Positions 17,901 through 37,065 of a DNA stretch of 64,000 nt are shown here, in pieces. The stretch's first letter is position 1; the number at the start of each line of letters is the position of its first letter. A program made the translations under genes and the position numbers. Source of the DNA: Methanobacteriota archaeon (GTDB taxonomy: Archaea; Thermoplasmatota; Poseidoniia; Poseidoniales; Thalassarchaeaceae); assembly GCA_004195715.1 (NCBI GenBank), contig PSPX01000003.1:5232-69231 (forward strand), read 5' to 3'. The notes under the pieces are model-generated. The model was not told the DNA's origin, ran no database searches, and worked only from the letters and a program-made list of their open reading frames with translations.

Positions 17901-18046
17901 AACTTGAGAAGCTAGGCGCGGGAGGAGGGAGTAACTGGTTCAGCGACAACTCGACGACCCTCGTGTTTGTGACTGTGGGCCTCTTGCTGATTGTCGGTAT
18001 CGCAGTCTTCGCGATTTCCTTGCGGAAATCAGATACCGAGTGGTGA
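14981..18046 (+). CDS. Large cell-surface glycoprotein (S-layer/adhesin-like), 1021 aa
   Basis: N-terminal signal/TM (RTALTVLTVLLLSIPAAMVVGEG). Roughly 20 or more N-x-S/T sequons. C-terminal TM anchor plus basic tail (LVFVTVGLLLIVGIAVFAISLRKSDTEW). No catalytic motifs. Confidence 0.6.
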   Translation: MVHILKVEARSVPRVRTALTVLTVLLLSIPAAMVVGEGDEPTTCTVLVDWDVEGYWDGGWNMTYDVLHRYLVVFDPPFINGSSPSALNVEVQHHREGEQIADTSNTTVLSAGGEVDITLSTEPEFGDTISISVVTGEASCSRILTITNWNQPMANHEITRETTWSMEGAEQGNGIDFEGRGWQKRTGSILESNELGNGTLTMNGTEGLVLELNLNRIWMNETYDGVELLRQDFEMSGNGSLFINTTEEGEGGEGSGFSVDVQVNDVYVLRSWDEGKLTERFLIDGTGWLSFGGGDNNSNSGGFGQLSSFYYETWDEDDRRRLQHLQLEANATLRLNNGGRDSFSFDLDEFRLLERWEDGTREQQHFLILGEGEFGFVIEDEFFEVEVNGTIPVIHIETQGGENVAETIRIDGTYDGDAEGSFGFIRRIVDSGSQENATGAMFEVDKIENEFWFNVSATPIGPITEEWEAEHNLTYEFIVPQIDWGNRTIRYQYIEDNGTITNEYPEVSPIIMQADAPESQFVFENHISRETGAAPEIVVAGDRFSLAGNDAMILSIEVTAIVEREMDGHIVEVAEWLGDYGEYSHASGGIVNEGPLAGLLNEVHRWVEIEIGQNDSSEGIAFVEHQLVDRVLSPSVVSEEENTPPSLVSVGFREGRLLTEGDSAHLEALVYDFDTDVTVVTIDLSELGLGTVELSDSGLQGDHTIHDDIWTALITYDGLNHGMMDASVVIEDFWVAVEEQTSIEIINAAPRMISLDFMPDTVRRGETVDVSVTALDGHGIDSVGIDLLSAGGALSALSESDGVWSGNFVVPDGISPGERSIPVRITDGDGETVMAVHTHFDGFPVDAPMLTIENEAPSVTSVSLLRSGETAEKIHVPHSGDPIPHSLEASIDDPDGISSVQAKIGRLAPIGSSGAWLLMVDDGTGGDRVSGDGIYTLQFDVRASLPEGNITIQIRATDTYLSTTPTLEQPHILKLEKLGAGGGSNWFSDNSTTLVFVTVGLLLIVGIAVFAISLRKSDTEW

Positions 18047-18547: not shown

Positions 18548-18615
18548 ATATCCCTGAGGCCATCTCAGTTATTGAATTGCATGAATCTCATAAGACGCCA
18601 CGCAGTCGAGCAGGC

Positions 18616-20034
18616 ATGCACACGCGCGAGGAGTTGTACATCGGCGGCCAGTGGGTCGAACCTCTTGGCGAAGGCACGATCGAAGTGGCCAATCCAGCCA
18701 ATGATGAATTGATTGGCTCGGTGCCAGTTGGTTCGGCCGCAGACGTGGATGCCGCGGTGGCCGCAGCGCACTCCGCTTTCCCCTCTTGGTCGCAGACTCC
18801 GGTAGAAGAGCGTGCGGAGTTTCTGAACAGACTGTCCGCGGCCATAAAGGAGCAGACTGAGGAACTATCTCAATTGATTACGGCCGAGGTCGGCACTCCC
18901 ATCAACTACTGCAGGATGGCTATGGTGGGAACCCCGAAGGTGGTCTCGCGCTCATACGCAAAGATTCTCGATGGATTCGAGTGGGAGCAGGAGGTCCGCA
19001 ACTCACTTGTGGTCAAGGAGCCTATTGGCGTGGTAGCGATGATCACTCCCTGGAACTTCCCTCTTCACCAGATCATCGGTAAGGTGGCACCCGCCATCGC
19101 CGCCGGCTGCACCATGGTAGTCAAGCCATCCAAGGAGGCGCCACTGAACGCCTTCGCACTCGCAGACATCATCCACGACATCGGGTTGCCTGCTGGAGTG
19201 TTCAACCTAGTTTCTGGACACGGCAGGGAGATTGGGGAGGTTCTGAGTTGCCACCCCGATGTCGACATGGTCAGCTTCACTGGCTCCACCAGCGCTGGAG
19301 TAAGAGTCAGCGAATTGGCCTCCCCCAGCGTCAAGAGGGTCACCCTCGAGCTCGGCGGTAAGAGCGCCAACATCATCCTCGACGACGCCGACATCGCCAA
19401 GGCATCTGGCTCTGCAATATACTCCTGCTTCAGTAATTCCGGACAGGAGTGCTCGGCGCTGACGAGACTACTCATCCCCGAGTCCAAACGCGATGAGGTG
19501 ATTGAGATTATTTCCACCAAGGTGGCCAAGTACACCGTTGGTGACCCACTCGACGAATCGATGCGCTGCGGCCCTATGGTGTCAAAGCGGCAGCAACAGA
19601 GCGTGGCCTCGTACATCGCCAGTGGAATCGAGGAGGGCGCAACTCTGATTGCTGGGGGTCAGGGCATGCCCGAGGGGCTGGATTCAGGTTGCTTCGTCAG
19701 ACCCACCGTGTTCGCCGACGTTACTCCTGAGATGACTATCTTCCGAGAGGAGATATTCGGCCCCGTCCTCTCTATCACTACCTACTCGACCGAGGACGAG
19801 GCAGTTGCGCTGGCCAACGACTCCGAGTACGGACTCTCCGGAGGTGTCTGGTCGGGAGATGATGAACGGGCTATGCGGGTCGCCCGTCGGTTGCGCACCG
19901 GACAGGTAAGCATCAACGGAGGATTGTTCAACGTCTCAGCGCCATTCGGTGGTTACAAGCTCTCTGGGAACGGGCGCGAGCTCGGGGTTCACGGGCTTGA
20001 GGAATACCTCGAGATCAAGGCGATTCAACGCTGA
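18616..20034 (+). CDS. NAD(P)-dependent aldehyde dehydrogenase
   Basis: The ORF begins at 18577, but the conserved N-terminus MHTREELYIGGQWVEP begins at ATG 18616. ALDH motifs present: FTGSTSAG, ELGGKSA, catalytic Cys region GQECSA. Confidence 0.85.
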   Translation: MHTREELYIGGQWVEPLGEGTIEVANPANDELIGSVPVGSAADVDAAVAAAHSAFPSWSQTPVEERAEFLNRLSAAIKEQTEELSQLITAEVGTPINYCRMAMVGTPKVVSRSYAKILDGFEWEQEVRNSLVVKEPIGVVAMITPWNFPLHQIIGKVAPAIAAGCTMVVKPSKEAPLNAFALADIIHDIGLPAGVFNLVSGHGREIGEVLSCHPDVDMVSFTGSTSAGVRVSELASPSVKRVTLELGGKSANIILDDADIAKASGSAIYSCFSNSGQECSALTRLLIPESKRDEVIEIISTKVAKYTVGDPLDESMRCGPMVSKRQQQSVASYIASGIEEGATLIAGGQGMPEGLDSGCFVRPTVFADVTPEMTIFREEIFGPVLSITTYSTEDEAVALANDSEYGLSGGVWSGDDERAMRVARRLRTGQVSINGGLFNVSAPFGGYKLSGNGRELGVHGLEEYLEIKAIQR

Positions 20035-21219: not shown

Positions 21220-22053
21220 CTATCTGCCGACCCATTCTGCGTCCTCGCGCCTGAGGAAGGCCGACACTCCGATTTCCTTATCCTCGGTGTCGAACAGAGC
21301 CACGAACTCCGAGCGCTCGGTGAGAACTCCCTCTGTGAACGGCAGATCTAGAGCGGCACGTACGGCACGCTTCGCGACCCTGACAGTGTAAGGTGACTTC
21401 CTAGCTATATTCTCCGCTAGCGCAAGCGCCTCCCTCTCGAGTTCTTCGGGCTCGACTACCTTGTTGACCAGACCAATGCTCAAGGCCTCCTCTGCCCCTA
21501 CCATTTCCCCGGTCAGAGTCATTTCCATCGCTTTGCCGTAGCCCAGCAGTCTGCACAGGCGCTGGGTCCCACCGCCACCCGGTATCAGTCCGAGGTTAAT
21601 TTCGGGCTGTCCGAACTTGGCTCGAGTAGAGGCGACTCTCAGGTCGCAGGCCAGCGCGAGTTCGGTGCCACCACCTAGTGCGAAACCATCTACCATTGCG
21701 ATAGTCGGCTTGGAAAGACCCCAGACCGCCTCCCAAGCATTGTTCGCGAAGAATTCACGTACATCGTCCGAGTTCTTGCCCGCGAACTCGGAGATATCTG
21801 CACCAGCAGCGAAGGCTGCCGGTTTGGGCCGCTTTCCTTCTTCAGGTGTTGGCGGGGCCGCACCTCGGATGACCACGGCCCTGACTGCGTCGTCCGACTC
21901 GACCCGCACGCACTGCTCCTTAATCGCCAAATGCGAGTCACGGTTCAGAGCGTTGAGCTTCTCGGGGCGGTTTAACGTCCAGACGGCCACGACTCCACCC
22001 GAGGGACTGCATCCCTCAACAGCGATGTCATCAGTAAGCAGCACCCCGCTCAT
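21220..22053 (-). CDS. Enoyl-CoA hydratase/isomerase (crotonase family)
   Basis: 277 aa. LNRPEKLNALN...AMVDGFALGGGTELALACDLRVAS...KFGQPEINLGLIPGGGGTQRL. Confidence 0.8.
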   Translation of the reverse strand: MSGVLLTDDIAVEGCSPSGGVVAVWTLNRPEKLNALNRDSHLAIKEQCVRVESDDAVRAVVIRGAAPPTPEEGKRPKPAAFAAGADISEFAGKNSDDVREFFANNAWEAVWGLSKPTIAMVDGFALGGGTELALACDLRVASTRAKFGQPEINLGLIPGGGGTQRLCRLLGYGKAMEMTLTGEMVGAEEALSIGLVNKVVEPEELEREALALAENIARKSPYTVRVAKRAVRAALDLPFTEGVLTERSEFVALFDTEDKEIGVSAFLRREDAEWVGR

Positions 22054-24292: not shown

Positions 24293-25432
24293 TTGAAAGC
24301 GGTTGCACATAACGAAGGCCCGGGAGACATGACAATCGAGCTTCCGTCCGCTCCGATGCCCCGTGGCAGCCTGATTCCAGGTTCTTACTCAGAATTTGAG
24401 ATTGAGATGGAGGCAAGACGTTTGCAAAGCGCCATTAAGCAGCCAGTGAGGTGGAGTCTGGGCACCTGCAGGGCGATTGCACCGCTCACTCTCGAGATTA
24501 ACGATTTGAAGCGGAAGAACGACGTTTTTCTAATCGCCCACTCCTATCAGACCCCTGACATCACTTACGGCGTAGCCGACTCGGTGGCCGACAGTTACGC
24601 GCTTTCGAAGGAGGCCCGGGATGCCCCACAGCAGACTATCCTGTTCTCCAGCGTTCGTTTCATGGCCGAGACCGCTAAGATAGTCAGTCCGCACAAGATT
24701 GTACTCCACCCATCTCCCAAGGCAGGCTGCTCTTTGAGCGATGGTATCGTCGCTCAGGACATCCTCAACCTCAGGGAGAAACACCCCGGAGTCCCCGTCG
24801 TGTGCTACATCAATACCAGTGCCGAGGTCAAGGCCGAGTGTGATGTCTGCGTAACCAGCAGTAACTACATGAAAATCTGTGAGATGCTTCCGGGGGACAG
24901 TCTAATCTTCGTCCCGGATCGTTTCATGGGTAAGCACCTGCAGAACCACTTGGCAGGAAAGAAGAAAATTATCGTGTTCGATGGGGAGTGCGAGGTGCAT
25001 GCTGCATTCACCGGCGATAAGATTCGCAACTGGAGGAAGCGCACTGCTGCGGTCGGCATCGATCTGAAGGTGCTCAGTCACCCCGAGTGCGATGCCGAGG
25101 TAATAGAGGAGAGTGACTTCGTTGGTAGCAGCGAGGTGCTGATGAACGAGGCACTCCGGCTCGCCTCGGAGGGAAACAAGGATCTGATGCTAATCACCGA
25201 GTGTGGCACTGTTGACAGGGTGATGGCGGAGTCCGATTACGATTTGAACCTAATAGGAGCATGTGTGATGTGCCCTCACATGAAGACGACCCAGCTTGAG
25301 GACATTCTACAGGCACTCAGAAATCCTCGTCCCGAGCAGGTCATCGAACTCGATGCAGACGTCATAGAGAGGGCGAGAAGCAGCCTTGACGAGATGTTTC
25401 GACTCGCCGAGAATTCAGCCCCGACGTTCTGA
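24293..25432 (+). CDS. nadA: Quinolinate synthase
   Basis: ILFSSVRFMAETAKI...LHPSPKAGCSLSD...VVCYINTSAEVKAECDVCVTSSN...MCPHMKTT match NadA. The true start is probably internal, because the ORF would overlap the Bud32 ORF. Confidence 0.8.
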   Translation: MKAVAHNEGPGDMTIELPSAPMPRGSLIPGSYSEFEIEMEARRLQSAIKQPVRWSLGTCRAIAPLTLEINDLKRKNDVFLIAHSYQTPDITYGVADSVADSYALSKEARDAPQQTILFSSVRFMAETAKIVSPHKIVLHPSPKAGCSLSDGIVAQDILNLREKHPGVPVVCYINTSAEVKAECDVCVTSSNYMKICEMLPGDSLIFVPDRFMGKHLQNHLAGKKKIIVFDGECEVHAAFTGDKIRNWRKRTAAVGIDLKVLSHPECDAEVIEESDFVGSSEVLMNEALRLASEGNKDLMLITECGTVDRVMAESDYDLNLIGACVMCPHMKTTQLEDILQALRNPRPEQVIELDADVIERARSSLDEMFRLAENSAPTF

Positions 25433-29090: not shown

Positions 29091-29165
29091 ACGAGTGTAG
29101 TGTAGTGGTTATCACCGGGCGTTGCCAACGCCTGAACCCGGGTTCAAATCCCGGCACTCGTACCA
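29091..29165 (+). tRNA. tRNA-Gly (anticodon GCC), CCA encoded
   Basis: Hand-folded. Acceptor ACGAGTG/CACTCGT, anticodon stem GGGCG/CGCCT with loop TTGCCAA, T-arm CCGGG-TTCAAAT-CCCGG, discriminator A, CCA. Confidence 0.75.
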
Positions 29166-29245
29166 TTCGATTGTTCCAGATGCCCTCGAATCGCTCGTAG
29201 AGGTGACTTCGACAGATTCAATATGTAATGCCATGACTCCACTTC

Positions 29246-29590
29246 ATGAAAGAATTCAGAATCAACATGAGTGATGAACCCGGTTCTCTAGCTGAGCTCT
29301 GCGAGACTATCGCTTCGAAAGACGTCAACATACTGACTATCGTTGCAATATCGGGAGAACCCGCATCTGCTGCAATCTTGACCGACAACGCAGATGCCAC
29401 CTCTGCGGCGCTTGATGGAATGGGTGCTAAATACTCGGTAGCAGATCTCAAGTCAGCCAAGTTGGATCACAAGCCGGGCTCACTGGCCGCCTTCACAAGA
29501 GGGATGAGCAACTCCGAAGTCAACCTCACATCGCTATACGTCATGTCAATGGATGGCGACAGCGCCACCATCGGTTACACTACTGACTGA
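29246..29590 (+). CDS. ACT-domain protein (small amino-acid-binding regulatory domain)
   Basis: 114 aa. RINMSDEPGSLAELCETIASKDVNILTIVAIS fits the ACT beta-alpha-beta-beta-alpha-beta pattern. It sits between two tRNA genes. Confidence 0.5.
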   Translation: MKEFRINMSDEPGSLAELCETIASKDVNILTIVAISGEPASAAILTDNADATSAALDGMGAKYSVADLKSAKLDHKPGSLAAFTRGMSNSEVNLTSLYVMSMDGDSATIGYTTD

Positions 29591-29595
29591 TGCAA

Positions 29596-29670
29596 GCGGA
29601 CATGGTCTAGTGGTTATGACAGTAGGTTCCCAACCTGCTAACCCGGGTTCAACTCCCGGTGTCCGCACCA
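29596..29670 (+). tRNA. tRNA-Gly (anticodon CCC), CCA encoded
   Basis: Acceptor GCGGACA/TGTCCGC, anticodon stem GTAGG/CCTGC with loop TTCCCAA, T-arm CCGGG-TTCAACT-CCCGG, discriminator A, CCA. Confidence 0.75.
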
Positions 29671-29728
29671 ATCGCACGCGTGAGGGTTTAGCAACGCTAA
29701 TGCGCGAATCTGAATTCGAACGGCCACA

Positions 29729-29806
29729 GGGCCCGTGGGTTAGCTTGGCCTATACTTGGCGCTTCGGGGGCGTTAGACCTCAGTTCAAATCTGGGCGGGC
29801 CCACCA
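29729..29806 (+). tRNA. tRNA-Pro (anticodon CGG), CCA encoded
   Basis: Acceptor GGGCCCG/CGGGCCC, anticodon stem GGCGC/GCGTT with loop TTCGGGG, T-arm CTCAG-TTCAAAT-CTGGG, discriminator A, CCA. The D-arm pairing is irregular by hand-folding and needs tRNAscan confirmation. Confidence 0.6.
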
Positions 29807-29808
29807 CT

Positions 29809-30138
29809 TCAGTAGTTGCCGATGGTCGATAGGCAGCGCTCTATCAGAGTGCCAAGCTCGCCAATCATCGCATCCTCTTCGTTTGTGAATCTGAGTGTCG
29901 CAGCTCCGGACTTCTTTGACTCAAGACTGGATGGTAGTATGTAGGGGTAGTAGTACAGCGGCAGCAGGTAGACCCCAACGTGGTGGAGCTGTATCCTGAC
30001 GCTGGCGAAGGGCCTGCCCGCTCCGGTCTCGATCCTGAGGTCTCCTGGTTCGTCCACGGTGACCGGCAGGCCTGCAGAGCCATCTCTTACTATCTCAGCC
30101 AACCTAGCCCAGAGGAACAAGTGGCCGGGGTTCTTCAT
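29809..30138 (-). CDS. Hypothetical protein (109 aa), translationally coupled to the upstream 3-hydroxyacyl-CoA dehydrogenase
   Basis: Its start overlaps the HBD stop (ATGA). No confident family assignment. Confidence 0.35.
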   Translation of the reverse strand: MKNPGHLFLWARLAEIVRDGSAGLPVTVDEPGDLRIETGAGRPFASVRIQLHHVGVYLLPLYYYPYILPSSLESKKSGAATLRFTNEEDAMIGELGTLIERCLSTIGNY

Positions 30139-31010
30139 CGCTCGACCTTCTTGCCGCTGGTCCAGTCGTAGATGCCCTCACCGGTCTTCTTGCCTAGGTC
30201 ACCTGCTTCGACCAATCGGTCAAGCAAAGGGTGCGGTCTGTAACTCTCGTCATCAAAGGCATCCGCGAGGTTGTTGAGAATGTCACGTCGCACATCCAGG
30301 CCAACGAGGTCGCTGAGTTCCAACGGCCCCATCGGATGCCTGTAACCCAGACGCATCGCTGTGTCTATGTCGCTTGCCGAGGCAACTCCGTCAGCCAGCA
30401 TGCGAATCGCCTCGTTGCCGAGCACGACCCCGAGGCGACTTGTCGCGAAACCCGGGACGTCGCGCACCACGATGGTTGTCTTTCCCATCGCAGAACCGAT
30501 TGATTGTGCGGCTGCGATGGTCTCCTCGGAGACAGTGTCGTGGCGCACCAACTCAAGCAGGCTCATCAGCGGTACTGGATTGAAGAAGTGCATCCCGATG
30601 ACCCTCTCGGGGCAGCCTGTCGATTGCGCTATCTCGGAAATCGAGAGCCCTGAGGTGTTGGTCGCGAGCATCGCGTGACTCGGTGCTAGACGCTCCAGTT
30701 TGGCGAAGATGTCCTGCTTCAACTGCATGCTCTCCGGCACCGCCTCGATAACAAGATCGGCGCCTTCGACCGCCTCAGCCAAGTCATTGACGCCCCTCAG
30801 GTTTTCCGACCACTCGGCCTTCTGAGTGGATGTGGTCTTGCCTCGCTCGATGCCTTTGTCCCAGAAAGCCTCGATTGCAACCATCCCCTTGGTAAGGCTC
30901 TCTGGAAACGCATCGTACAAACGGGTATTCCACCCAGTCTGGGCGCAAACTTGAGCTATCCCTGCACCCATAGTCCCAGCGCCGATGACGGCGACGCTTC
31001 GAACATCCAT
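30135..31010 (-). CDS. 3-hydroxyacyl-CoA dehydrogenase (3-hydroxybutyryl-CoA dehydrogenase-like)
   Basis: Conserved start MDVRSVAVIGAGTMGAGIAQV at Met22 (complement ATG 31010). NAD-binding and C-terminal dimerization domain present. Confidence 0.85.
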   Translation of the reverse strand: MDVRSVAVIGAGTMGAGIAQVCAQTGWNTRLYDAFPESLTKGMVAIEAFWDKGIERGKTTSTQKAEWSENLRGVNDLAEAVEGADLVIEAVPESMQLKQDIFAKLERLAPSHAMLATNTSGLSISEIAQSTGCPERVIGMHFFNPVPLMSLLELVRHDTVSEETIAAAQSIGSAMGKTTIVVRDVPGFATSRLGVVLGNEAIRMLADGVASASDIDTAMRLGYRHPMGPLELSDLVGLDVRRDILNNLADAFDDESYRPHPLLDRLVEAGDLGKKTGEGIYDWTSGKKVER

Positions 31011-31014
31011 CCGA

Positions 31015-31575
31015 TTACTCCCTACCATAGGCTGCAAGCGCGGCTTGGAATAGTCGCTGGCGGGGCACGTCATGCTCTAGAAAACAAGTGAATGGAGCGA
31101 CGTCCTTCAGTAATTCGATGGCGCTGACATAGGCGCCGTAGACGAATGGATCAGCTGATTCGGTTGCAGGGATTTCGATTCCGAGCTTGACCAGTCCCTT
31201 GCGGGTGTCTTCGTCCCAGATTGCGTAGGTATGGTTGGTGAAGTGGAGATAGGCAGACAGTCTGCGCAGATCCGACCTAGCCTTCTCGGTAAAACTCTCT
31301 ATCAGAAGCGTATCAGGGTACCTAATGGCGTACAACGCCAACATGACCTCTCTCTGGGTCTCTTCGCTCCAGTCACGCTCTGTTAGGCCCATCCAAGAAT
31401 CAATCATGTCGAGCATCTTGGGAGTGTACGGTCTACGAATCCTGTACAGCAGTTCCTCGTAACCCCCTGCATCTCCCTCCTCGGAGTGATGGTGCTGGTG
31501 GAAGTATTCGGTCAATCTTTCAAAGAACGGCCCGCACCGCTCCTTGTCAAATGATATCAGCGCGACGTGCTGCAT
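31015..31575 (-). CDS. Hypothetical protein (186 aa), possibly an accessory subunit of the adjacent PaaA-like oxygenase
   Basis: No diagnostic motif. It is histidine-rich near the N-terminus and sits 19 bp downstream of the PaaA-like gene in the same orientation. Confidence 0.3.
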   Translation of the reverse strand: MQHVALISFDKERCGPFFERLTEYFHQHHHSEEGDAGGYEELLYRIRRPYTPKMLDMIDSWMGLTERDWSEETQREVMLALYAIRYPDTLLIESFTEKARSDLRRLSAYLHFTNHTYAIWDEDTRKGLVKLGIEIPATESADPFVYGAYVSAIELLKDVAPFTCFLEHDVPRQRLFQAALAAYGRE

Positions 31576-31594
31576 ATCAAGGCCTCCAGCCGAG

Positions 31595-32737
31595 TCAGTC
31601 TCCCTTCCATTCTCGGTATTGAATCCATTCTTGTTGCATGTACTCGTTTACCAACTGATGCTCGTCCTCGTCTGATGGGAGGACTGACGAGAGGTACTCT
31701 TCCCAAGACTCTTCATCTCCCTCGAACTCCTCGCCGTGTACGGTGTAGCGCTTGCCGGCGAACCTACCTATGCCTCGCTCGAACTTGTCTGAGGGGATGT
31801 AGAGTTCCGGCTCCCCCTTCTTGCGAACTTTGCTGATTCTTCGCATCTCATCTCGAAGTTCTTGGAAGTACAACTCCCTACTGGCTTCGTTCAGGTGCTC
31901 CCTGTCCGCGTCCTCCCGTGCCTCACGCTCATCGTAGCGGCCCTTGACCCCGTAGACGTATGCCCACTGGGCGCTCGCCGAGTCATCGGTCCCAAACAAA
32001 TCGAGTCCGGTGCTCACCCACTTGTTGACATATTTCTGAATGAGGTCGCATGGGATGACGCCCTGCTTCACTATCCGACGCAGGCCGTTAGCTCCGGTTC
32101 CGAGGTGAAAAGACTCCTCCTTCAGCATTGGCCCCATGCTCGCAGCCAGCGGTTTGAACGACGAGGTACTAAGCATCTTGAGTTGGTACTTGCCGTCACG
32201 ATCAATGAAGTGAGTGAACATGAAGAAGTCGAGCCAGTGATCAATCGGCTCGTTGAACGAGCCCAGTATCCTCGTCCCTTCCTGAGCGTTTCTCTCGAGC
32301 AGCTTGGCGGCTTCGCGAACCCCCTGCTCGCCGAAGAATGTGCACAATAGGTAGGCCATCTGCCAACCGTGCCGCTGCTCCTCGCACATAATTCGTAGAG
32401 CGGACTTGCGGTCGTATTCAGTCGGAGCTGAGGCGAGCAGGTGATTCTGCTGCTCAACTGAGGCGAATTCGGTGTCGCCCTGAACACTGACCATATTGAT
32501 AATCGCATCGCGAATGGTCTGCTGAGGAATTTGCATCCTGCGATCCCACTTCGGTTTGCCTACGAAGTCGCCAAACTCGATTTGGTTGCCAGCTGTATCC
32601 CAATCGAACTTGATGTCGAAGCGGTAGTCGCCGAGCCATGAGGGGTCGAAGCCTATTCTGGTCTGCCACTCGCTGAAGTCGTGAATCCACGTCTCGAAGT
32701 TCTGAGTGTAGTCCTTGACAATCTCTGCGTCTGCCAT
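31595..32737 (-). CDS. Ferritin-like diiron oxygenase of the PaaA (1,2-phenylacetyl-CoA epoxidase subunit A)/BoxB family
   Basis: 380 aa. MCEEQRHGWQM (ExxH), GPMLKEESFHLGTG (the KEESFH block of PaaA), and a C-terminal ...FEGDEESWEEYL reminiscent of the PaaA C-terminus. Confidence 0.55.
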   Translation of the reverse strand: MADAEIVKDYTQNFETWIHDFSEWQTRIGFDPSWLGDYRFDIKFDWDTAGNQIEFGDFVGKPKWDRRMQIPQQTIRDAIINMVSVQGDTEFASVEQQNHLLASAPTEYDRKSALRIMCEEQRHGWQMAYLLCTFFGEQGVREAAKLLERNAQEGTRILGSFNEPIDHWLDFFMFTHFIDRDGKYQLKMLSTSSFKPLAASMGPMLKEESFHLGTGANGLRRIVKQGVIPCDLIQKYVNKWVSTGLDLFGTDDSASAQWAYVYGVKGRYDEREAREDADREHLNEASRELYFQELRDEMRRISKVRKKGEPELYIPSDKFERGIGRFAGKRYTVHGEEFEGDEESWEEYLSSVLPSDEDEHQLVNEYMQQEWIQYREWKGD

Positions 32738-32807
32738 GCAATATCGGCAGCAAGAACTGGTATATCAAACGCTGTATCAATATTCGCACTCTTTAGAGTG
32801 CGTTCAT

Positions 32808-33647
32808 TTAATTTCCATCGAATTCGGGAACTTCTCTGTTGACGTAGGCCGCAATCCCCTTCTTGGCATCGTCGCTCTGGAACAAGTCCGATTGCAACTC
32901 CCTCTCTAGGGCGAGATGGTACTCAAGAGGTATCTCCATCCCACTTTGGACGCTGCGCTTGATGTTCCCGATGGCCTTGCTGGCCGCATAGGGCAAAGTG
33001 AATTGTCCGGCGTAGTCAAGAGTGTCTTGACGAAACTCGTCGAGACTGCCGGCCCAGACGTCATGAACTAGGTCCATTTCCTTGGCTTCCTCGTACGAGA
33101 ACTTGCGTCCTGTAACCATTATCTCCATCGCCTTCGCCTTGCCGACTAGACGAGACAGTCTGGCAGTCCCGCCGGTGCCGGCGAGAACACCCAGAGATAC
33201 TTCGGGCAAACCCACCTGACCCGAGTCCTTACGGCCGATTCGGATATCGGCTGCCATGGCGATCTCAAGGCCGCCTCCTACGGCGTGTCCATTGAGAGCG
33301 GCGATTACTAGTTTGGGTGTCTGCTCTAGCCTGCTTAGAGTCTCATTGGCATGAAGGCAGAAGAAGTACTTGAAGCCGGGAGTGACTGAGTCTAGCATGC
33401 TGATGCTGGCTCCGGCAGAGAAGAACTTCTCGCCGTGCCCAGTCAGCATAATCACGGTGACGTCATCGTCGAAGCGAGCCTTAAGCACGGCTTCATCGAT
33501 GTCGCGCATCATCGAGTGGGTGTAGGTGTTCACGGGAGTCTTTCCCTCTGTGAGGGGTTCTCCAGTTGAATCCGAGCACAGTTCAATGACGGCTATCCCG
33601 TTGTCCGTCACTCCGTAGTTCACAAGGTTGTTCGTCATCGGCTCCAT
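32808..33647 (-). CDS. Enoyl-CoA hydratase/isomerase family protein
   Basis: The ORF extends to 33776, but the crotonase N-terminus (MEPMTNNLVNYGVTDNGIAVIEL) starts internally. ALNGHAVGGGLEIAMAADIRIG...GLPEVSLGVLAGTGGTARL. Confidence 0.75.
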   Translation of the reverse strand: MEPMTNNLVNYGVTDNGIAVIELCSDSTGEPLTEGKTPVNTYTHSMMRDIDEAVLKARFDDDVTVIMLTGHGEKFFSAGASISMLDSVTPGFKYFFCLHANETLSRLEQTPKLVIAALNGHAVGGGLEIAMAADIRIGRKDSGQVGLPEVSLGVLAGTGGTARLSRLVGKAKAMEIMVTGRKFSYEEAKEMDLVHDVWAGSLDEFRQDTLDYAGQFTLPYAASKAIGNIKRSVQSGMEIPLEYHLALERELQSDLFQSDDAKKGIAAYVNREVPEFDGN

Positions 33648-33718
33648 TTCGGGCCAAGAGGTCATGCTAGCGCCACAGAGGGACGCCATATCAATCAAAC
33701 GGAGTTGGAGGGACGCCT

Positions 33719-34945
33719 TTAGGCGTCGTTCTCGCTGAAAGAGGTCTTCCCCCCGCCCTTGCGAACGAGGTCCCAATGTTCTGCAATTTCATTGCCTCTG
33801 GCGCTTGGTTCCCAGACGTCCCTAGAAAGTGCCTTCCTGAATGGCATGCGACTAACCATCCTGCTGTCCGCGAGCCGTTTGCGCCTCAACATGCCGAGTC
33901 TGACTACTGGCCACAGCATTCTCCGAACTAGTCCAGGCTTGTACACCCAGCGCATGAACACGAGACCATCTCCCTTCTTGCGCTGGTCACGCATCCAGTG
34001 ATTAGCCACCATCTTGAATCCCCGATTGCCAACTCTGTTCATCAGGAAACGGTTGACGGCGCTAGCTCTGACAAGGGGAACGAGACGCCCCCTCACCTCG
34101 CTCTCGTAGTCGCACTCGCCTAGAACGGCCTTGGCGGCCATAACGCCGCTGGTGACTGCGTAACGCATCCCGAAGCCCCACATGAAGTCCTGTAGTCCAC
34201 CCGCCTCGCCAACGTAGTAGCGGCCCTCGTGTACGTACTTGTCAGGCAGCGAAAAGTCGCCTTTGCCGCCGACCCTCTTAATCGGTCTGCGATTCAGGTC
34301 GTAGTGCTGTTCGTACCACGCGATGGTTTCGTTGAGGTAGCGCGAGGTCTTCTTCTGCTGGCGCCACAGGCAGGTGCAAATCAGACCTATGCCATCGATG
34401 ATGATGAGATAGGAGTAGGCCCCCGGAGCCAGTTTGTCATTCAGTTGGAAGGTGACATGATTGGGATGGTCTGTGTGAAAGATCTCCCCGAACGCCACCG
34501 CACTGGACTCCTTTGGACCGGCGGCGATAATATGGCAGTCCTTGGGATCCCTGCGGGTATCGTAGTGGATTTCTGCGCCTGCATCGAGTGCCATCCGCTT
34601 GAAGCCCTGGTCGATGCAATGTCCAGCGGTCCCACGCTCTACGACACGGAAAGCAAGTCCTGAGGTTCGAGGTTGAGTTATTTCGTCGTCAGGGTGTACG
34701 AGGTCAATCACATCGAACCCATTGGACTTGAATTCCTCTGGGTCGAAGCCCCATTCTCGTATCTCATCGAAGAAGTCGGAGTCACTGGTCCAGTTCTCTA
34801 TGCCTTGGAAATCACCGTCGAAGCGAGCCCCACTATCTGAGCGGATCTCGTGTACATGCACCTCCCGTCCCGCATTCGCGAGATAGGTAGCTGCAGCGAG
34901 ACCCGAGAGGCCTGCCCCTAGTATGTGGACTGGCTCACTGCTCAT
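33719..34945 (-). CDS. FAD-dependent oxidoreductase, geranylgeranyl-reductase-like
   Basis: 408 aa. HILGAGLSGLAAATYLA FAD dinucleotide fold, YVGEAGGLQDFMWGFGMRYAVTSG (GGR-like GDAAG region), and an Arg-rich C-terminal extension. Confidence 0.55.
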   Translation of the reverse strand: MSSEPVHILGAGLSGLAAATYLANAGREVHVHEIRSDSGARFDGDFQGIENWTSDSDFFDEIREWGFDPEEFKSNGFDVIDLVHPDDEITQPRTSGLAFRVVERGTAGHCIDQGFKRMALDAGAEIHYDTRRDPKDCHIIAAGPKESSAVAFGEIFHTDHPNHVTFQLNDKLAPGAYSYLIIIDGIGLICTCLWRQQKKTSRYLNETIAWYEQHYDLNRRPIKRVGGKGDFSLPDKYVHEGRYYVGEAGGLQDFMWGFGMRYAVTSGVMAAKAVLGECDYESEVRGRLVPLVRASAVNRFLMNRVGNRGFKMVANHWMRDQRKKGDGLVFMRWVYKPGLVRRMLWPVVRLGMLRRKRLADSRMVSRMPFRKALSRDVWEPSARGNEIAEHWDLVRKGGGKTSFSENDA

Positions 34946-35025: not shown

Positions 35026-35448
35026 ATGACTCACGTACGAGTACTCATCGAGTCCGAGCGACTCGACCCCGAGGAACTGAGGAAGATGCTCACTGCGGAT
35101 GGCTGCGGCAGCGTAGTCTCTTTCGTAGGACTCACCCGAGGGGAGGACCATGGAGTGGCTGTCGAGCGACTAGAGTTCGACGCTTGGGAGAAAAGACTCC
35201 CAGAGGTACTGAACGAGCTCGCCGAGCAGGCTCTGGGCCAGTTCGGAGTGAGTTCGGTGGTGCTGGCCCACCGCACTGGTTCGGTCGGGCCAGGCGAACC
35301 CATAGTATGCATCCACGTCGGCTCGCCCCATAGGGCCGAGGGCTTCGAAGCCTGTAGTTGGCTGATAGATGAGCTGAAGCGGCAGGCTCCATTGTGGAAG
35401 AAGGAGATCCGGGCCGATGGTGAGATCTGGAAGGCCGGTCTTGGATGA
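35026..35448 (+). CDS. moaE: Molybdopterin synthase catalytic subunit
   Basis: 140 aa. VSFVGLTRG...LEFDAWEK...VLAHRTGSVGPGEPIVCIHVGSPHRAEGFEACSWLIDELKRQAPLWKKE matches the conserved MoaE blocks. Confidence 0.75.
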   Translation: MTHVRVLIESERLDPEELRKMLTADGCGSVVSFVGLTRGEDHGVAVERLEFDAWEKRLPEVLNELAEQALGQFGVSSVVLAHRTGSVGPGEPIVCIHVGSPHRAEGFEACSWLIDELKRQAPLWKKEIRADGEIWKAGLG

Positions 35449-36795
35449 TTATATCGTGTCCATCACACCACTGACACTGGCCACTGCCTCAGGCACGTTC
35501 GATGCTATTCCTTCTACCATCATCCAGCCGTGTCCCTTGACCCCGTCGCCAACGAGACGAACTCCCTCTATGCCGACATCTGAGGGCAGTTCGGCGCCCT
35601 GTGGGGCGCGATTGCAAGGCCAGTTCCTGTGGTAGGTGTGAACACACAACTCTTCTCCATGGTCAGCGAGCCACGGGATGGCATTGTAGAGATCCTCGCG
35701 CCCCTTCGTTATCTCCGATTTCACGCTCGGGTCCGGCACATACTGGTGTGTGATCATCATGTGCTTGCCCTCAGGTGCGAGGCTCGGATCAGAAAAGGTT
35801 GGAATTACATATCCGCCAACTCTTTCCAAGCCTGGCAGCATGGTTACTCCACTGCCGCGGTGAGGAATATCGTCGTCTAGCGCGAACACGAAGCCGATGC
35901 CCCCGACTGCTTGAGTGTCACGGACCTGCTCTCTGATTCCCGTAGATACCTCAAAGTCGTCCGAGAGCGCCTTGAGCAGGTTAGGGTGTCCGCCATTGTG
36001 GATAATCGCATCAGCACCAACCCAAACCCCCTCATCCCGACCGCGCCGCCTGATGCCGATACAGAAGCGGTTTCCCTTGGTCGACTCCTCTGCGTCACCG
36101 GGCAGTATCTCGGTAATCTCGTGGGACAGCTTGACGCGGGCTCCGTTCTCCCGCAGGTCGCTTCGCAGCCCGTCGATGACCCCCTTGCACCCGCCCTTGG
36201 GGACATGAGGACGGTCGCTCCAGAACGAATTCTGAAGCATCCTCACGACTGTTGATGCAGGCATCTGCTCGAACCTCAAGCTGATGGCGAAATTGGCAAA
36301 AGCATCGACAAAGTCGATGAAGTCATTGGAGAAGTACCTCGACATCCAAGTTCTGCCGTCCTCGGTCTCGTTGCCCCATGGCTGTTTGGCGGGCTTCATC
36401 AACAACCGCGGCAGGTTCAGCGTGTCCTTGAGCGAGAACCACGGTAAGACCCCGTAGACCGAGTTGGCCCGTTGAAGTTTACCATCCTTGATCTGGCAGG
36501 CGAACTTGGTGGTTGGCAGGAAGTCGACTCCATGGCGCCCAAGGTCGAGCCCACCGCTGCTCCGTTTGCCGAGTATCAGTTTTGCGAAGGGCCCCTTCTT
36601 GCCATGCGGGATCATGTGGACCGCGCCGGTTGGAATCTGAAAACCGTCGTGGTCGTGCTGAGTGAACCTGCCCCCGGCGAAAGACATCCTCTCGTAGACT
36701 GTGACATCGTACTTCTGTGTCTGTGCGAGACTTGCAGCTGATGCCAGCCCTCCTACTCCGGCGCCGATGACCACTGCCTTTGCTCGCTCGCTCAT
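35449..36795 (-). CDS. Phytoene-desaturase-family FAD-dependent oxidoreductase (CrtI-like, COG1233)
   Basis: 448 aa. AVVIGAGVGGLASAASLA...YERMSFAGGR and overall length/architecture of amine-oxidase-fold desaturases. Confidence 0.55.
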   Translation of the reverse strand: MSERAKAVVIGAGVGGLASAASLAQTQKYDVTVYERMSFAGGRFTQHDHDGFQIPTGAVHMIPHGKKGPFAKLILGKRSSGGLDLGRHGVDFLPTTKFACQIKDGKLQRANSVYGVLPWFSLKDTLNLPRLLMKPAKQPWGNETEDGRTWMSRYFSNDFIDFVDAFANFAISLRFEQMPASTVVRMLQNSFWSDRPHVPKGGCKGVIDGLRSDLRENGARVKLSHEITEILPGDAEESTKGNRFCIGIRRRGRDEGVWVGADAIIHNGGHPNLLKALSDDFEVSTGIREQVRDTQAVGGIGFVFALDDDIPHRGSGVTMLPGLERVGGYVIPTFSDPSLAPEGKHMMITHQYVPDPSVKSEITKGREDLYNAIPWLADHGEELCVHTYHRNWPCNRAPQGAELPSDVGIEGVRLVGDGVKGHGWMMVEGIASNVPEAVASVSGVMDTI

Positions 36796-36804
36796 CCTGC
36801 CACC

Positions 36805-37065
36805 TCAGGAGTACACTAGGGCTCCTGTCGGACACCAAAGGAGGCACCTCAGGCAGTCAGTGCAGTTATCCTCGATGACCTCGCAAAGTCCCTCGACGAT
36901 TAGCGCATCGTCCTTACAGGTCATCAGACAGTAAGAGCAGCCAACACAGAGTTCGTCGATTACCTGCAGTTTCAGGCCGTCAGTGATAGGCCTGTCATGG
37001 GCGATACCAGATTCCAACTCGGGGACAGCGCCCGGAGTCGCCTTGTTTCGAAACGCCTCGGCCAC
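36805..37065 (-). CDS. 2x[4Fe-4S] ferredoxin
   Basis: 86 aa. CVGCSYCLMTC and CTDCLRCLLWCP cluster motifs. It lies 9 bp upstream of the CrtI-like gene. Confidence 0.7.
   Translation of the reverse strand: MAEAFRNKATPGAVPELESGIAHDRPITDGLKLQVIDELCVGCSYCLMTCKDDALIVEGLCEVIEDNCTDCLRCLLWCPTGALVYS

What the first reader, a model, noticed from the sequence alone, without database searches (positions are those of the whole stretch)
30135..33776. Beta-oxidation-like operon containing a PaaA-type diiron oxygenase and two unassigned small proteins
The same-strand gene order is: enoyl-CoA hydratase, PaaA/BoxB-family ferritin-like diiron protein (EEQRHGWQ and KEESFH blocks), a 186-aa unknown, 3-hydroxyacyl-CoA dehydrogenase, and a 109-aa unknown (translationally coupled, ATGA overlap). 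Canonical PaaA works with PaaBCDE, including a reductase, and none of those are recognizable here. This may be an uncharacterized CoA-ester oxygenation/epoxidation step embedded in an acyl-CoA degradation pathway. The substrate could be aromatic or branched acyl-CoA.
Basis: partly seen in the sequence, partly recalled or inferred. Interest (0 to 1): 0.55.

Follow-up and report, generated by a model that had tools for sequence, protein, structure and literature searches.

The report
Short BoxB-type epoxidase operon in marine archaea
A conserved operon in abundant ocean-surface archaea (Marine Group II) pairs a shortened relative of the bacterial benzoyl-CoA ring epoxidase BoxB with beta-oxidation-type enzymes, which suggests an untested oxygen-dependent route for breaking down aromatic acids.

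Summary
The minus strand carries crotonase, diiron protein, a 186-aa ORF, 3-hydroxyacyl-CoA dehydrogenase and a 109-aa ORF with an ATGA overlap. All are real, conserved genes of a Thalassarchaeaceae (Marine Group II b) archaeon.

The diiron protein is BoxB-type, not PaaA-type, so missing PaaBCDE is not an anomaly. The real gap is the absence of BoxA reductase and BoxC lyase.

All six iron ligands are conserved, and so are six of seven benzoyl-pocket residues. The protein belongs to a distinct ~375-380-aa "short BoxB" clade found in Marine Group II, Gemmatimonadota, Acidobacteriota, Eremiobacterota and Deltaproteobacteria.

Across domains, its core neighbour is the orthologue of the window's crotonase (38 of 45 bacterial loci, 7 of 7 archaeal). 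An aldehyde dehydrogenase, further crotonases, the dehydrogenase and a thiolase often accompany it.

In Acidobacteriota the operon continues into a 4-hydroxybenzoyl-CoA reductase. In Deltaproteobacteria it continues into a NuoEF-like reductase.

Best reading: a BoxA/BoxC-independent variant of the aerobic aromatic acyl-CoA epoxide pathway.

The 186-aa protein is specific to Marine Group II and weakly resembles the HhH-GPD glycosylase fold. The 109-aa protein has a YdhG/DUF1801 fold and is accessory.

Substrate and electron donor remain unproven.

The parts
33719..34945 (-). 408-aa FAD-binding flavoprotein, distantly like geranylgeranyl reductase. It is conserved directly upstream of the crotonase in all Marine Group II loci. 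It is a candidate, unproven electron donor or additional oxidoreductase.
   Evidence: PF13450 NAD_binding_8 at residues 8-41. Partial TIGR02032 match at residues 160-274, 33.8 bits against a 158.8 cutoff. Only Rossmann-region matches to PDB. Present in 7 of 7 archaeal loci and 0 of 45 bacterial loci. It stays next to the crotonase even where that pair is separated from the BoxB-like gene (L009-L011).
32808..33665 (-). Crotonase-family enzyme ('ECH-A'), the core conserved partner of the short BoxB. The ORF runs to 33776. Public gene calls start at the residue equivalent to 33647 or 33665.
   Evidence: PF00378 E=4.6e-46. Best PDB hit is 2ppy, E=1e-58. Orthologues at 55-67% identity lie on the same strand within 6 kb of the short BoxB in 38 of 45 bacterial loci; in 7 of 7 archaeal loci they lie within 6 kb (same strand in 6). 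Both hydratase-type catalytic Glu motifs (GGGLE and GLPE) are visible in the sequence. The motif assignment rests on my own knowledge of rat enoyl-CoA hydratase.
31595..32737 (-). 380-aa ferritin-like diiron oxygenase, a short-form BoxB relative (putative aromatic acyl-CoA epoxidase).
   Evidence: TIGR03225 BoxB 223 bits (cutoff 499). PaaA 43 bits. PF05138 51 bits. PDB 3per BoxB E=3.4e-47. Ligands E90, E120, H123, D179, E208 and H211 are conserved. The second-shell residues equivalent to Q116, T119, S123, F193, F203 and F206 are conserved. T210 is replaced by Ile (residue list from PMC5489048).
31015..31575 (-). 186-aa conserved protein restricted to Marine Group II, always directly after the BoxB-like gene. 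Function unknown. All-alpha with a weak HhH-GPD-glycosylase-like fold.
30135..31010 (-). NAD-dependent 3-hydroxyacyl-CoA dehydrogenase (PaaH/Hbd-like). The ORF extends to 31073, but the start at M22 (31010) matches public gene calls.
   Evidence: PF02737 E=1.4e-62 and PF00725 E=6e-33. PRK09260 337 bits. PaaH TIGR02279 252 bits. A 291-aa gene call in L085-L088. Present in 7 of 7 archaeal loci and 7 of 45 bacterial loci within 6 kb.
29809..30138 (-). 109-aa accessory protein with a YdhG/DUF1801-like alpha/beta fold. It is translationally coupled to the dehydrogenase (ATGA).
   Evidence: Only 31 homologue clusters. Replaced by a PQ-loop gene in L001. AlphaFold2 pLDDT 93. Foldseek PDB top hits are 9t2w, a YdhG-like protein (probability 0.97-0.99, TM 0.59-0.68), and 2oc6, B. 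subtilis YdhG (probability 0.96), all with E>0.05. One homologue hits Pfam DUF1801 at E=3.4e-4.
18577..20034 (+). Aldehyde dehydrogenase. It is a displaced member of the module, adjacent to the cluster in related genomes.
   Evidence: Generic ALDH (BADH-like, 472 bits, below cutoff). At 69-78% identity it lies 3.8-3.9 kb from the BoxB-like gene in L001 and L006. Relatives at about 41% identity sit between ECH-A and the short BoxB in 16 of 45 bacterial loci.
21220..22053 (-). Second crotonase, like PaaF or short-chain enoyl-CoA hydratase. It is a displaced member of the module.
   Evidence: PRK05809 236 bits and PaaF NF007239 224 bits. It lies next to the aldehyde dehydrogenase and the cluster in L001 and L006.

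Best explanation
The operon encodes a variant of the aerobic 'hybrid' aromatic acyl-CoA pathway, the kind known from the Box and Paa systems.

The proposed sequence of steps is inferred.
1. The 380-aa diiron enzyme takes two electrons from a donor that is not yet identified. It activates O2 and epoxidises the ring of benzoyl-CoA or a close analogue.
2. The tightly linked crotonase (ECH-A) processes the epoxide hydrolytically, in place of BoxC.
3. The aldehyde dehydrogenase oxidises the resulting semialdehyde.
4. The PaaF-like crotonase, the PaaH-like dehydrogenase and a thiolase encoded elsewhere finish the job by beta-oxidation.

What is shown:
- BoxB-type homology.
- An intact diiron site.
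- A largely conserved benzoyl pocket.
- Conserved gene linkage across two domains of life.

What is inferred:
- The substrate.
- The role of ECH-A.
- The electron donor.
- Any role for the 186-aa, 109-aa and 408-aa proteins.
For: Homology and active site:
- BoxB homology: TIGR03225 223 bits and PDB 3per E=3e-47, against only 43 bits for PaaA.
- All six iron ligands are invariant in 72 short-form sequences.
- Five of the seven residues that orient the benzoyl ring in BoxB are invariant. A sixth is Phe or Tyr (residue list from PMC5489048).

The clade:
- The short form is a coherent clade, separate from canonical 445-495-aa BoxB.

Gene context:
- ECH-A orthologues are present in 38 of 45 bacterial loci and 7 of 7 archaeal loci.
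- Gemmatimonadota loci read TetR, ECH-A, ALDH, thiolase, PaaG-like ECH, short BoxB, dehydrogenase, PaaF-like ECH. These enzyme types match what ring-cleavage and lower-pathway steps would need.
- In 17 Acidobacteriota loci the operon continues into a three-subunit molybdoenzyme. Its large subunit passes the equivalog cutoff for 4-hydroxybenzoyl-CoA reductase alpha (1022 bits against 994.55). The product of that enzyme is benzoyl-CoA.
- In Deltaproteobacteria a NuoE/NuoF-like NADH-dependent module follows the gene. This is consistent with a redox-dependent oxygenase.

Expression:
- A Marine Group II boxB was reported as highly expressed in the Red Sea (PMC5069720).
Against: - No BoxA, BoxC, aryl-CoA ligase or thiolase was found in the window (the central cluster, the aldehyde dehydrogenase/second-crotonase region and 25 further large ORFs were profile-scanned; the rest was covered only by coarse motif scans) or within 8 kb of any archaeal locus (motif scans only).
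- The protein scores well below the BoxB equivalog cutoff.
- It lacks two BoxB insertions.
- Residue T210 of BoxB is always V, I or M in this clade, so substrate or regiochemistry may differ.
- ECH-A retains both hydratase glutamates and is not BoxC-like.
- The aldehyde dehydrogenase is generic, not BoxD/PaaN-type.
- Aldehyde dehydrogenase and the 4-hydroxybenzoyl-CoA reductase are linked mainly in bacteria. The inference is carried over to archaeal orthologues at about 50% identity.
- No biochemical data exist for any member of the clade, as far as the searched literature shows.
Confidence: 0.55

Rival explanations
1. The enzyme is a phenylacetyl-CoA (or other arylacetyl/arylpropionyl-CoA) epoxidase. 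It would serve aromatic amino-acid catabolism in these peptide-consuming archaea, as a single-subunit functional analogue of PaaABC.
For: - The window is rich in peptidases (M17, M14) and an arginase, which fits a peptide diet.
- Linked bacterial crotonases score best on PaaG (232 bits) and the alternative oxepin-CoA hydrolase (193 bits).
- An aldehyde dehydrogenase plus a crotonase is the known substitute for PaaZ (my own knowledge: Teufel et al. 2011, J Biol Chem).
- The best hits of the bacterial aldehyde dehydrogenase are phenylacetaldehyde dehydrogenases (571 bits, below cutoff).
Against: - The sequence is far closer to BoxB than to PaaA (223 against 43 bits).
- The benzoyl-orienting residues of BoxB are conserved.
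- The Acidobacteriota linkage is to 4-hydroxybenzoyl-CoA reductase, which makes benzoyl-CoA.
Confidence: 0.12
2. The diiron enzyme acts on a non-aromatic acyl-CoA, for example as an O2-dependent desaturase or hydroxylase. It would replace acyl-CoA dehydrogenase, or bypass a methyl branch, within a beta-oxidation operon.
For: - The operon holds a hydratase and a 3-hydroxyacyl-CoA dehydrogenase but no acyl-CoA dehydrogenase.
- ECH-A keeps both hydratase glutamates.
- A Marine Group II 3-hydroxyacyl-CoA dehydrogenase is among the most transcribed genes and is read as fatty-acid oxidation (PMC9723583).
- The T210 position is hydrophobic (V, I or M) in this clade.
Against: - The aromatic-pocket residues F193, F203 and F206, and the thioester-binding Q116, are conserved.
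- An aldehyde dehydrogenase recurs inside the bacterial operons. Simple beta-oxidation has no use for it.
- A 4-hydroxybenzoyl-CoA reductase is adjacent in Acidobacteriota.
- To my knowledge, the characterised members of this family (PaaA, BoxB) act on aryl-CoAs.
Confidence: 0.15
3. The cluster is a mosaic with no dedicated pathway. The BoxB-like protein would be an orphan paralogue that merely sits among housekeeping beta-oxidation genes, and the two small ORFs would be unrelated passengers.
For: - The slot between the BoxB-like gene and the dehydrogenase is filled by unrelated genes in different lineages: the 186-aa protein, a GDPD, rhodanese plus ArsC, and an EamA transporter.
- The 109-aa gene is replaced by a PQ-loop gene in L001.
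- In the window, the aldehyde dehydrogenase and second crotonase lie about 10 kb away.
Against: - The ECH-A to short-BoxB linkage holds across Archaea and at least five bacterial phyla.
- A TetR regulator in bacteria and an HTH_10 regulator in some Marine Group II loci sit at the head of the cluster.
- The genes are tightly spaced, with gaps of 4-70 nt and an ATGA overlap.
- The 186-aa gene is next to the BoxB-like gene in 7 of 7 archaeal loci.
Confidence: 0.1

Closest known systems
BoxB, benzoyl-CoA 2,3-epoxidase oxygenase component (Azoarcus evansii; PDB 3per/3pm5; NCBIfam TIGR03225)
   Same: - Ferritin-like diiron fold.
- All six metal ligands.
- The Q116/T119/S123/F193/F203/F206 benzoyl-pocket residues.
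- A homologous C-terminal region.
- A setting among CoA-ester-processing enzymes.
   Different: - About 95 residues shorter, with two insertions and the C-terminal tail missing.
- Only 36-38% identical and below the family cutoff (223 against 499 bits).
- T210 is replaced by V, I or M throughout the clade.
- No boxA or boxC next to it in any of 80 loci.
- The partner crotonase is a single-domain protein of about 280 aa that is hydratase-like, not the roughly 550-aa BoxC (BoxC size from my own knowledge).
PaaA of the PaaABC(D)E phenylacetyl-CoA epoxidase (PDB 3pvr/4ii4; TIGR02156)
   Same: - The same Pfam family (PF05138) and the same diiron ligand pattern.
- The downstream logic is shared: a crotonase isomerase or hydrolase, an aldehyde dehydrogenase, PaaF/PaaH-like enzymes and a thiolase.
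   Different: - Very weak similarity (43 bits, E about 1e-5 to PDB).
- No PaaB, PaaC, PaaD or PaaE-type genes in the window or in related loci.
PDB 4mud, 'ring oxydation complex/phenylacetic acid degradation related protein' (235 aa; structure solved, function unknown)
   Same: A short BoxB/PaaA-family diiron domain. It aligns over residues 68-223 at E=6e-21.
   Different: It is much shorter and lacks the C-terminal half. No functional data exist, and its gene context was not examined here.
YdhG/Fra (DUF1801) proteins, for the 109-aa protein
   Same: The predicted alpha/beta fold matches 9t2w and 2oc6 (probability 0.96-0.99, TM 0.6-0.68).
   Different: - No significant sequence match for the window protein itself.
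- Foldseek E-values are above 0.05.
- An iron-chaperone role has been proposed for Bacillus Fra (my own knowledge). Applying it here is speculation.
HhH-GPD superfamily (Ogg2 3n0u, endonuclease III, MagIII, DUF2419 queuosine salvage), for the 186-aa protein
   Different: - 8-14% identity.
- No recognisable helix-hairpin-helix/Gly-Pro/Asp signature was established.
- The gene sits in an acyl-CoA operon, not in a DNA-repair context.

Membership tests
BoxB (benzoyl-CoA 2,3-epoxidase subunit B, TIGR03225) | Diiron ligands Glu120, Glu150, His153, Asp211, Glu240 and His243 | tested here: met
   The window equivalents are E90, E120, H123, D179, E208 and H211. They are invariant in 72 short-form sequences. 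The ligand list comes from PMC5489048.
BoxB (benzoyl-CoA 2,3-epoxidase subunit B, TIGR03225) | Score above the curated equivalog cutoff | tested here: not met
   223.3 bits against a cutoff of 499.1. The match covers profile positions 63-328 of 471.
BoxB (benzoyl-CoA 2,3-epoxidase subunit B, TIGR03225) | Benzoyl-orienting second-shell residues Gln116, Thr119, Ser123, Phe193, Phe203/206 and Thr210 | tested here: inconclusive
   Six of seven are identical in the window protein. Thr210 is Ile here and V, I or M in the whole clade. Phe206 is Tyr in most bacterial members.
BoxB (benzoyl-CoA 2,3-epoxidase subunit B, TIGR03225) | Works with BoxA, a reductase with 2x[4Fe-4S] plus an FNR-like FAD domain, normally encoded alongside | tested here: not met
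   No BoxA-like gene lies within 8 kb in any of about 80 loci (motif scan) or next to the cluster in the window. The only pieces present are a separate 2x[4Fe-4S] ferredoxin (36805-37065) and a CysJ/FNR-like flavoprotein (47583-48899; 82 bits to the BoxA C-terminus). Neither is linked to the cluster.
BoxB (benzoyl-CoA 2,3-epoxidase subunit B, TIGR03225) | Coupled to BoxC, the two-domain crotonase-type epoxybenzoyl-CoA dihydrolase or lyase | tested here: not met
   The linked crotonase has about 280 aa. Its best matches are ordinary hydratases (2ppy, PRK07658), and BoxC is not among its top hits.
BoxB (benzoyl-CoA 2,3-epoxidase subunit B, TIGR03225) | Catalyses 2,3-epoxidation of benzoyl-CoA | not testable with these tools
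   This needs an enzyme assay. The only indirect support is the adjacent 4-hydroxybenzoyl-CoA reductase in Acidobacteriota loci.
PaaA (phenylacetyl-CoA epoxidase subunit A, TIGR02156) | Score above the family cutoff | tested here: not met
   42.9 bits against a cutoff of 280. E is about 1e-5 to the PaaA structures.
PaaA (phenylacetyl-CoA epoxidase subunit A, TIGR02156) | Encoded with PaaB, PaaC, PaaD and the PaaE reductase | tested here: not met
   None was found among the cluster genes. There is no plant-type 2Fe-2S/FNR protein in the related loci. The 186-aa protein shows no profile similarity to the PaaA_PaaC/BoxB family.
Canonical fatty-acid beta-oxidation operon | Acyl-CoA dehydrogenase, enoyl-CoA hydratase, 3-hydroxyacyl-CoA dehydrogenase and thiolase | tested here: not met
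   The hydratase and the dehydrogenase are present. No acyl-CoA dehydrogenase or thiolase motif was found anywhere in the 64-kb window.
DUF1801 / YdhG-like (109-aa protein) | YdhG-type alpha/beta fold and a Pfam PF08818 match | tested here: inconclusive
   The fold matches with probability 0.96-0.99 but E>0.05. The Pfam match appears for only 1 of 21 homologues (E=3.4e-4) and not for the window protein.
HhH-GPD glycosylase superfamily (186-aa protein) | Two-lobed all-alpha fold with a helix-hairpin-helix, a Gly/Pro loop and a catalytic Asp | tested here: inconclusive

The most novel reading that the evidence does not exclude
Marine Group II archaea, the most abundant archaea of the surface ocean, would run a previously unrecognised oxygen-dependent aromatic acyl-CoA epoxide pathway as a core trait that may be highly expressed. 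The pathway would have three features:
- a shortened BoxB that needs neither BoxA nor BoxC;
- a lineage-specific 186-aa partner, with the adjacent GGR-like flavoprotein as the electron-delivery or assembly system;
- a simple hydratase-type crotonase doing the ring opening.

The same short-BoxB/ECH-A module would define a third, widespread branch of the hybrid aerobic aromatic pathways, alongside Box and Paa. It would be present in soil Acidobacteriota and Gemmatimonadota.
Probability: 0.25. Interest if true: 0.75.

Novelty: new variant of a known kind. Interest (0 to 1): 0.5.

Why it matters
What Marine Group II archaea actually consume is a long-standing open question, because none has been cultured. 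This operon is conserved in all seven Marine Group II loci examined (both MGIIb and the more distant Marine Group II loci). Its diiron gene has been reported as highly expressed in situ. The predicted biochemistry can be tested directly by heterologous expression.

If the module is confirmed, it would add aromatic acids to the carbon sources of these archaea. It would also define a BoxA/BoxC-independent branch of the aerobic benzoyl-CoA pathway that is common in soil Acidobacteriota and Gemmatimonadota.

It would correct current automatic annotations. These variously call the protein BoxB, PaaI, 'phenylacetic acid catabolic protein' or hypothetical.

Tried and rejected
1. PaaA membership was rejected. 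The score is 43 bits against 223 bits for BoxB.
2. The 186-aa protein is not a PaaC/ferritin-like or BoxB-derived domain. The hhalign probability is 0.3%, and no Pfam family fits any of 29 homologues.
3. The ferredoxin plus CrtI-like pair (35449-37065) was rejected as the dedicated reductase.
   - MoaE on the other strand separates it from the cluster.
   - It is absent from L001-L004.
   - It matches the crtI/crtD retinal genes reported for Thalassarchaeaceae (PMC9723583).
4. ECH-A as a BoxC homologue is not supported. Its best hits are ordinary hydratases.
5. The aldehyde dehydrogenase as a BoxD/PaaN-type enzyme is not supported. It is a generic ALDH.
6. Motif scans of the window for aryl-CoA ligase, thiolase, acyl-CoA dehydrogenase, Rieske and NuoF proteins found nothing relevant. 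The Rieske ring-hydroxylating oxygenase seen near the cluster in L005, L007 and L008 is absent from the window.
7. The first search for related loci attempt, with a 15-sequence alignment, failed because the alignment was too diverse. It succeeded with 6 sequences.
8. A Foldseek search of AFDB50 for the 186-aa model was not available.
9. Literature searches found no characterisation of the short form. They found only a mention of Marine Group II boxB expression.

Full report
**Organism and locus**

The window has about 56% G+C. It encodes thermosome, Cdc6/Orc1 and other archaeal-type genes. The closest homologues of the cluster proteins come from Tara and other marine metagenomes, where named, most are labelled Euryarchaeota archaeon or Candidatus Thalassarchaeaceae, that is Marine Group II b.

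Identical gene order and gene calls exist in four NCBI MAGs.

**Checking the observation**

The minus strand carries six ORFs, in the order of transcription.

| Coordinates | Product |
|---|---|
| 33719-34945 | 408-aa flavoprotein |
| 32808-33776 | crotonase ORF |
| 31595-32737 | 380-aa PF05138 protein |
| 31015-31575 | 186-aa ORF |
| 30135-31073 | 3-hydroxyacyl-CoA dehydrogenase ORF |
| 29809-30138 | 109-aa ORF |

- Pfam and NCBIfam confirm the crotonase, the diiron family and the dehydrogenase. They give nothing for the two small proteins.
- The dehydrogenase stop and the 109-aa start overlap as ATGA.
- Public gene calls put the dehydrogenase start at M22 (31010). That is 4 nt after the stop of the 186-aa gene, so the apparent 59-nt overlap is an ORF artefact.
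- The crotonase start falls at 33647-33665.
- tRNA-Pro converges on the end of the operon.

The description is therefore accurate.

**Identity of the diiron protein**

- It scores 223 bits on NCBIfam BoxB (TIGR03225, cutoff 499) and only 43 bits on PaaA.
- Against PDB it matches BoxB 3per at E=3e-47. It matches the 235-aa archaeal-type protein 4mud at E=6e-21. It matches PaaA structures at about 1e-5.
- The BoxB numbering in that alignment coincides with the published numbering.
- The published ligands are Glu120, Glu150, His153, Asp211, Glu240 and His243 (PMC5489048). They correspond to E90, E120, H123, D179, E208 and H211 in the window protein.
- Of the seven residues said to orient the benzoyl group, Q116, T119, S123, F193, F203 and F206 are identical. 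T210 is Ile.

**The short-BoxB clade**

A search of 1.84 billion representative proteins found 912 related clusters at E up to 0.001. The relatives split into canonical forms of about 445-495 aa and a short form of about 375-380 aa.

A scan of one genome per species recovered 584 relatives. The best 80 were all short-form.

| Group | Identity to the window protein |
|---|---|
| Marine Group II b | 85% |
| Other Marine Group II, including Poseidonia | 56-62% |
| Gemmatimonadota, Acidobacteriota (Terriglobia, Acidoferrales), Eremiobacterota, Deltaproteobacteria/Thermodesulfobacteriota, Binatia | 46-56% |

A rough neighbour-joining tree shows three things.
- The short form is one clade, apart from canonical BoxB.
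- The Marine Group II sequences are monophyletic within it.
- They sit next to the Gemmatimonadota-type sequences.

In 72 short-form sequences the six ligands and five pocket residues are invariant. F206 is Phe in archaea and Tyr in most bacteria. T210 is always V, I or M, whereas canonical forms have Thr.

**Conserved neighbourhood**

I ran tblastn with the window proteins against all loci, and I clustered about 1,100 neighbour ORFs. The findings are as follows.

- The orthologue of the window's crotonase (55-67% identity even in bacteria) lies on the same strand within 6 kb in 38 of 45 bacterial loci with full flanks. It lies within 6 kb in 7 of 7 archaeal loci (same strand in 6).
- An aldehyde dehydrogenase is present in 16 of 45 bacterial loci. 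A second crotonase is present in 39 of 45. The dehydrogenase is present in 7 of 45 bacterial and 7 of 7 archaeal loci.
- A typical Gemmatimonadota locus (L014) reads TetR, ECH-A, ALDH, thiolase, PaaG-like crotonase, short BoxB, GDPD, dehydrogenase, PaaF-like crotonase, Amidohydro_2.
- Acidobacteriota loci add a two-subunit CoA-transferase and a three-subunit molybdoenzyme.
  - The large subunit of that enzyme scores 1022 bits on 4-hydroxybenzoyl-CoA reductase alpha, above the 994.55 cutoff.
  - Its FAD subunit scores 326 bits on the beta subunit. It carries the Cys-rich insertion typical of that enzyme (the insertion's significance is from my own knowledge).
- Three deltaproteobacterial loci place a NuoE-like 2Fe-2S module and a NuoF-like protein (408 bits) directly after the short BoxB.
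- No locus has a BoxA-like or PaaE-like gene within 8 kb (motif scan).
- In the window, the aldehyde dehydrogenase (18577-20034) and the PaaF-like crotonase (21220-22053) lie about 10 kb away. In L001 and L006 they abut the cluster.

**The proteins found only in archaea**

- *408-aa flavoprotein.* It is found only in Marine Group II and always next to ECH-A. This holds even in L009-L011, where that pair is separated from the BoxB-like gene by MoaE, MoaC, GlpX and an HTH_10 regulator. Only its FAD-binding N-terminus and a short GGR-like stretch are recognisable.
- *186-aa protein.*
  - It has 175 homologue clusters; the few that carry names are Thalassarchaeaceae, Thermoplasmatota or unclassified marine Euryarchaeota MAGs.
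  - It has 53 invariant positions, including several His, Glu and Asp.
  - Relatives at 27-31% identity occupy the same slot in other Marine Group II loci.
  - Its AlphaFold2 model (pLDDT 81.6) is all-alpha.
  - It has no conserved Cys, so it is not an iron-sulfur carrier.
  - It is unrelated to the BoxB family.
- *109-aa protein.*
  - It has only 31 homologue clusters.
  - It is replaced by a PQ-loop gene in L001.
  - Its model (pLDDT 93) matches YdhG/DUF1801 proteins, with probability 0.96-0.99 and TM up to 0.68.
  - One homologue hits Pfam DUF1801.
  - I regard it as an accessory passenger. A possible iron-handling role, by analogy with Bacillus Fra, is speculative.

**Interpretation**

The enzyme inventory linked to the short BoxB is a crotonase, an aldehyde dehydrogenase, PaaG-like and PaaF-like crotonases, a PaaH-like dehydrogenase and a thiolase. 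This is the set the Box and Paa pathways need after ring epoxidation.

Two further points support benzoyl-CoA, or a close analogue, as the substrate.
- The benzoyl pocket is conserved.
- Acidobacteriota loci link the gene to an enzyme whose product is benzoyl-CoA.

BoxB does not use PaaB, PaaC or PaaD.

I infer that ECH-A takes over the second role, because it is the one gene that travels with the short BoxB across domains. It retains both hydratase glutamates and is not BoxC-like, so this is an inference and not a demonstration.

The electron donor in Marine Group II is unknown. The candidates are:
- the adjacent flavoprotein;
- a general ferredoxin;
- the CysJ/FNR-like flavoprotein at 47583-48899, which scores 82 bits to the FNR half of BoxA.

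The ferredoxin and CrtI-like pair at 35449-37065 is a separate unit.

**Rival readings**

- Phenylacetyl-CoA as the substrate.
- An aliphatic desaturase or hydroxylase that substitutes for the acyl-CoA dehydrogenase missing from the operon.
- A functionally unconnected mosaic of genes.

The evidence for and against each is given in the Rival explanations section.

**Comparison with what is known**

Public annotation is inconsistent.
- JGI labels these proteins 'benzoyl-CoA 2,3-dioxygenase component B'.
- NCBI labels them 'hypothetical', 'PaaI' or 'phenylacetic acid catabolic protein'.

One metatranscriptome paper lists Marine Group II boxB among highly expressed genes (PMC5069720). Another finds a Marine Group II 3-hydroxyacyl-CoA dehydrogenase among the six most transcribed genes (PMC9723583). 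Whether that is this gene was not shown.

I found no paper that recognises the short clade, its ECH-A partner, or the lack of BoxA and BoxC.

**Verdict**

- The feature is real and correctly described, but it was assigned to the wrong subfamily.
- It is best filed as a new variant of the Box-type aromatic acyl-CoA epoxide pathway.
- It is not a member of the BoxB equivalog as curated. It fails on the cutoff, on BoxA and on BoxC.
- Interest is moderate (0.5). The homology is known and already annotated. The variant is widespread, apparently highly expressed in uncultured archaea that matter ecologically, and directly testable.

Noticed in passing
window 35449-37065 (-): An 86-aa 2x[4Fe-4S] ferredoxin sits directly upstream of a 448-aa CrtI/phytoene-desaturase-like flavoprotein. 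MoaE (35026-35448, + strand) separates the pair from the cluster. The pair is present in L006 and L085-L088 but absent in L001-L004. It is probably the crtI/crtD retinal or carotenoid unit reported as highly transcribed in Thalassarchaeaceae. A ferredoxin-dependent desaturase pairing may be of interest in itself.
   Followed up: partly
window 47583-48899 (+): A 438-aa CysJ-like FAD/NADPH flavoprotein with no flavodoxin domain. It scores 370 bits on sulfite reductase alpha-type models and 82 bits on the FNR half of BoxA. It could be a general NADPH-dependent reductase, including for the diiron enzyme. No linkage was shown.
   Followed up: partly
L045, L049, L069 and 14 other Acidobacteriota loci, about +2 to +6 kb from the short BoxB: A three-subunit 4-hydroxybenzoyl-CoA reductase-like molybdoenzyme follows the oxygen-dependent short BoxB in the same gene string. 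Its alpha subunit scores 1022 bits, above the cutoff. This is an unusual pairing of a typically anaerobic enzyme with an oxygenase.
   Followed up: partly
L016, L018, L023 (Deltaproteobacteria/Thermodesulfobacteriota), +1.1 to +2.7 kb: A NuoE-like 2Fe-2S module and a NuoF-like FMN/4Fe-4S protein lie immediately downstream of the short BoxB. They are a likely NADH-dependent reductase partner of a different type from BoxA.
   Followed up: partly
L026 8522-9052, and 7 other Acidoferrales loci: A UDG-superfamily (Mug/TDG-like) DNA glycosylase gene sits between ECH-A and the second crotonase inside the short-BoxB operon. The Marine Group II operon carries a protein with a glycosylase-like (HhH-GPD) predicted fold. 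Two unrelated glycosylase-like proteins in the same kind of operon may be coincidence, or may relate to reactive epoxide intermediates.
   Followed up: no
L005, L007, L008 at about +4.7 kb (- strand); L009 at about -6.8 kb: A 351-aa Rieske ring-hydroxylating oxygenase alpha subunit (PF00355 plus PF00848) lies near the cluster in several Marine Group II genomes. It is absent from this window.
   Followed up: partly
window 29091-29806: Three tRNA genes (Gly-GCC, Gly-CCC, Pro-CGG) and a 114-aa ACT-domain ORF (29246-29590) lie directly downstream of the operon. In L001 this stretch, and the genes up to the NadA/PAP2 region, are arranged differently. The cluster's downstream border is therefore a rearrangement point between Marine Group II b genomes.
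   Followed up: partly
window 14981-18046 (+), 40473-43094 (+), 51261-52949 (-): Three large ORFs (1021, 873 and 562 aa) have no Pfam domain. The first has only a C-terminal 'choice-of-anchor X' match. The 873-aa protein is conserved at 51% identity in L001. They are possibly surface or secreted proteins.
   Followed up: no
L085, L087, L088 at about 12.7-13.8 kb, compared with L086 and window 24293-25432: The NadA (quinolinate synthase) gene is called as truncated fragments (145-256 aa) in three near-identical MAG contigs. It is intact (367-379 aa) in L086 and in the window. This is either an assembly or frameshift artefact or population-level pseudogenisation.
   Followed up: no
window 45061-46299 (-): A Cdc6/Orc1 gene, so a replication origin may lie nearby.
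   Followed up: no
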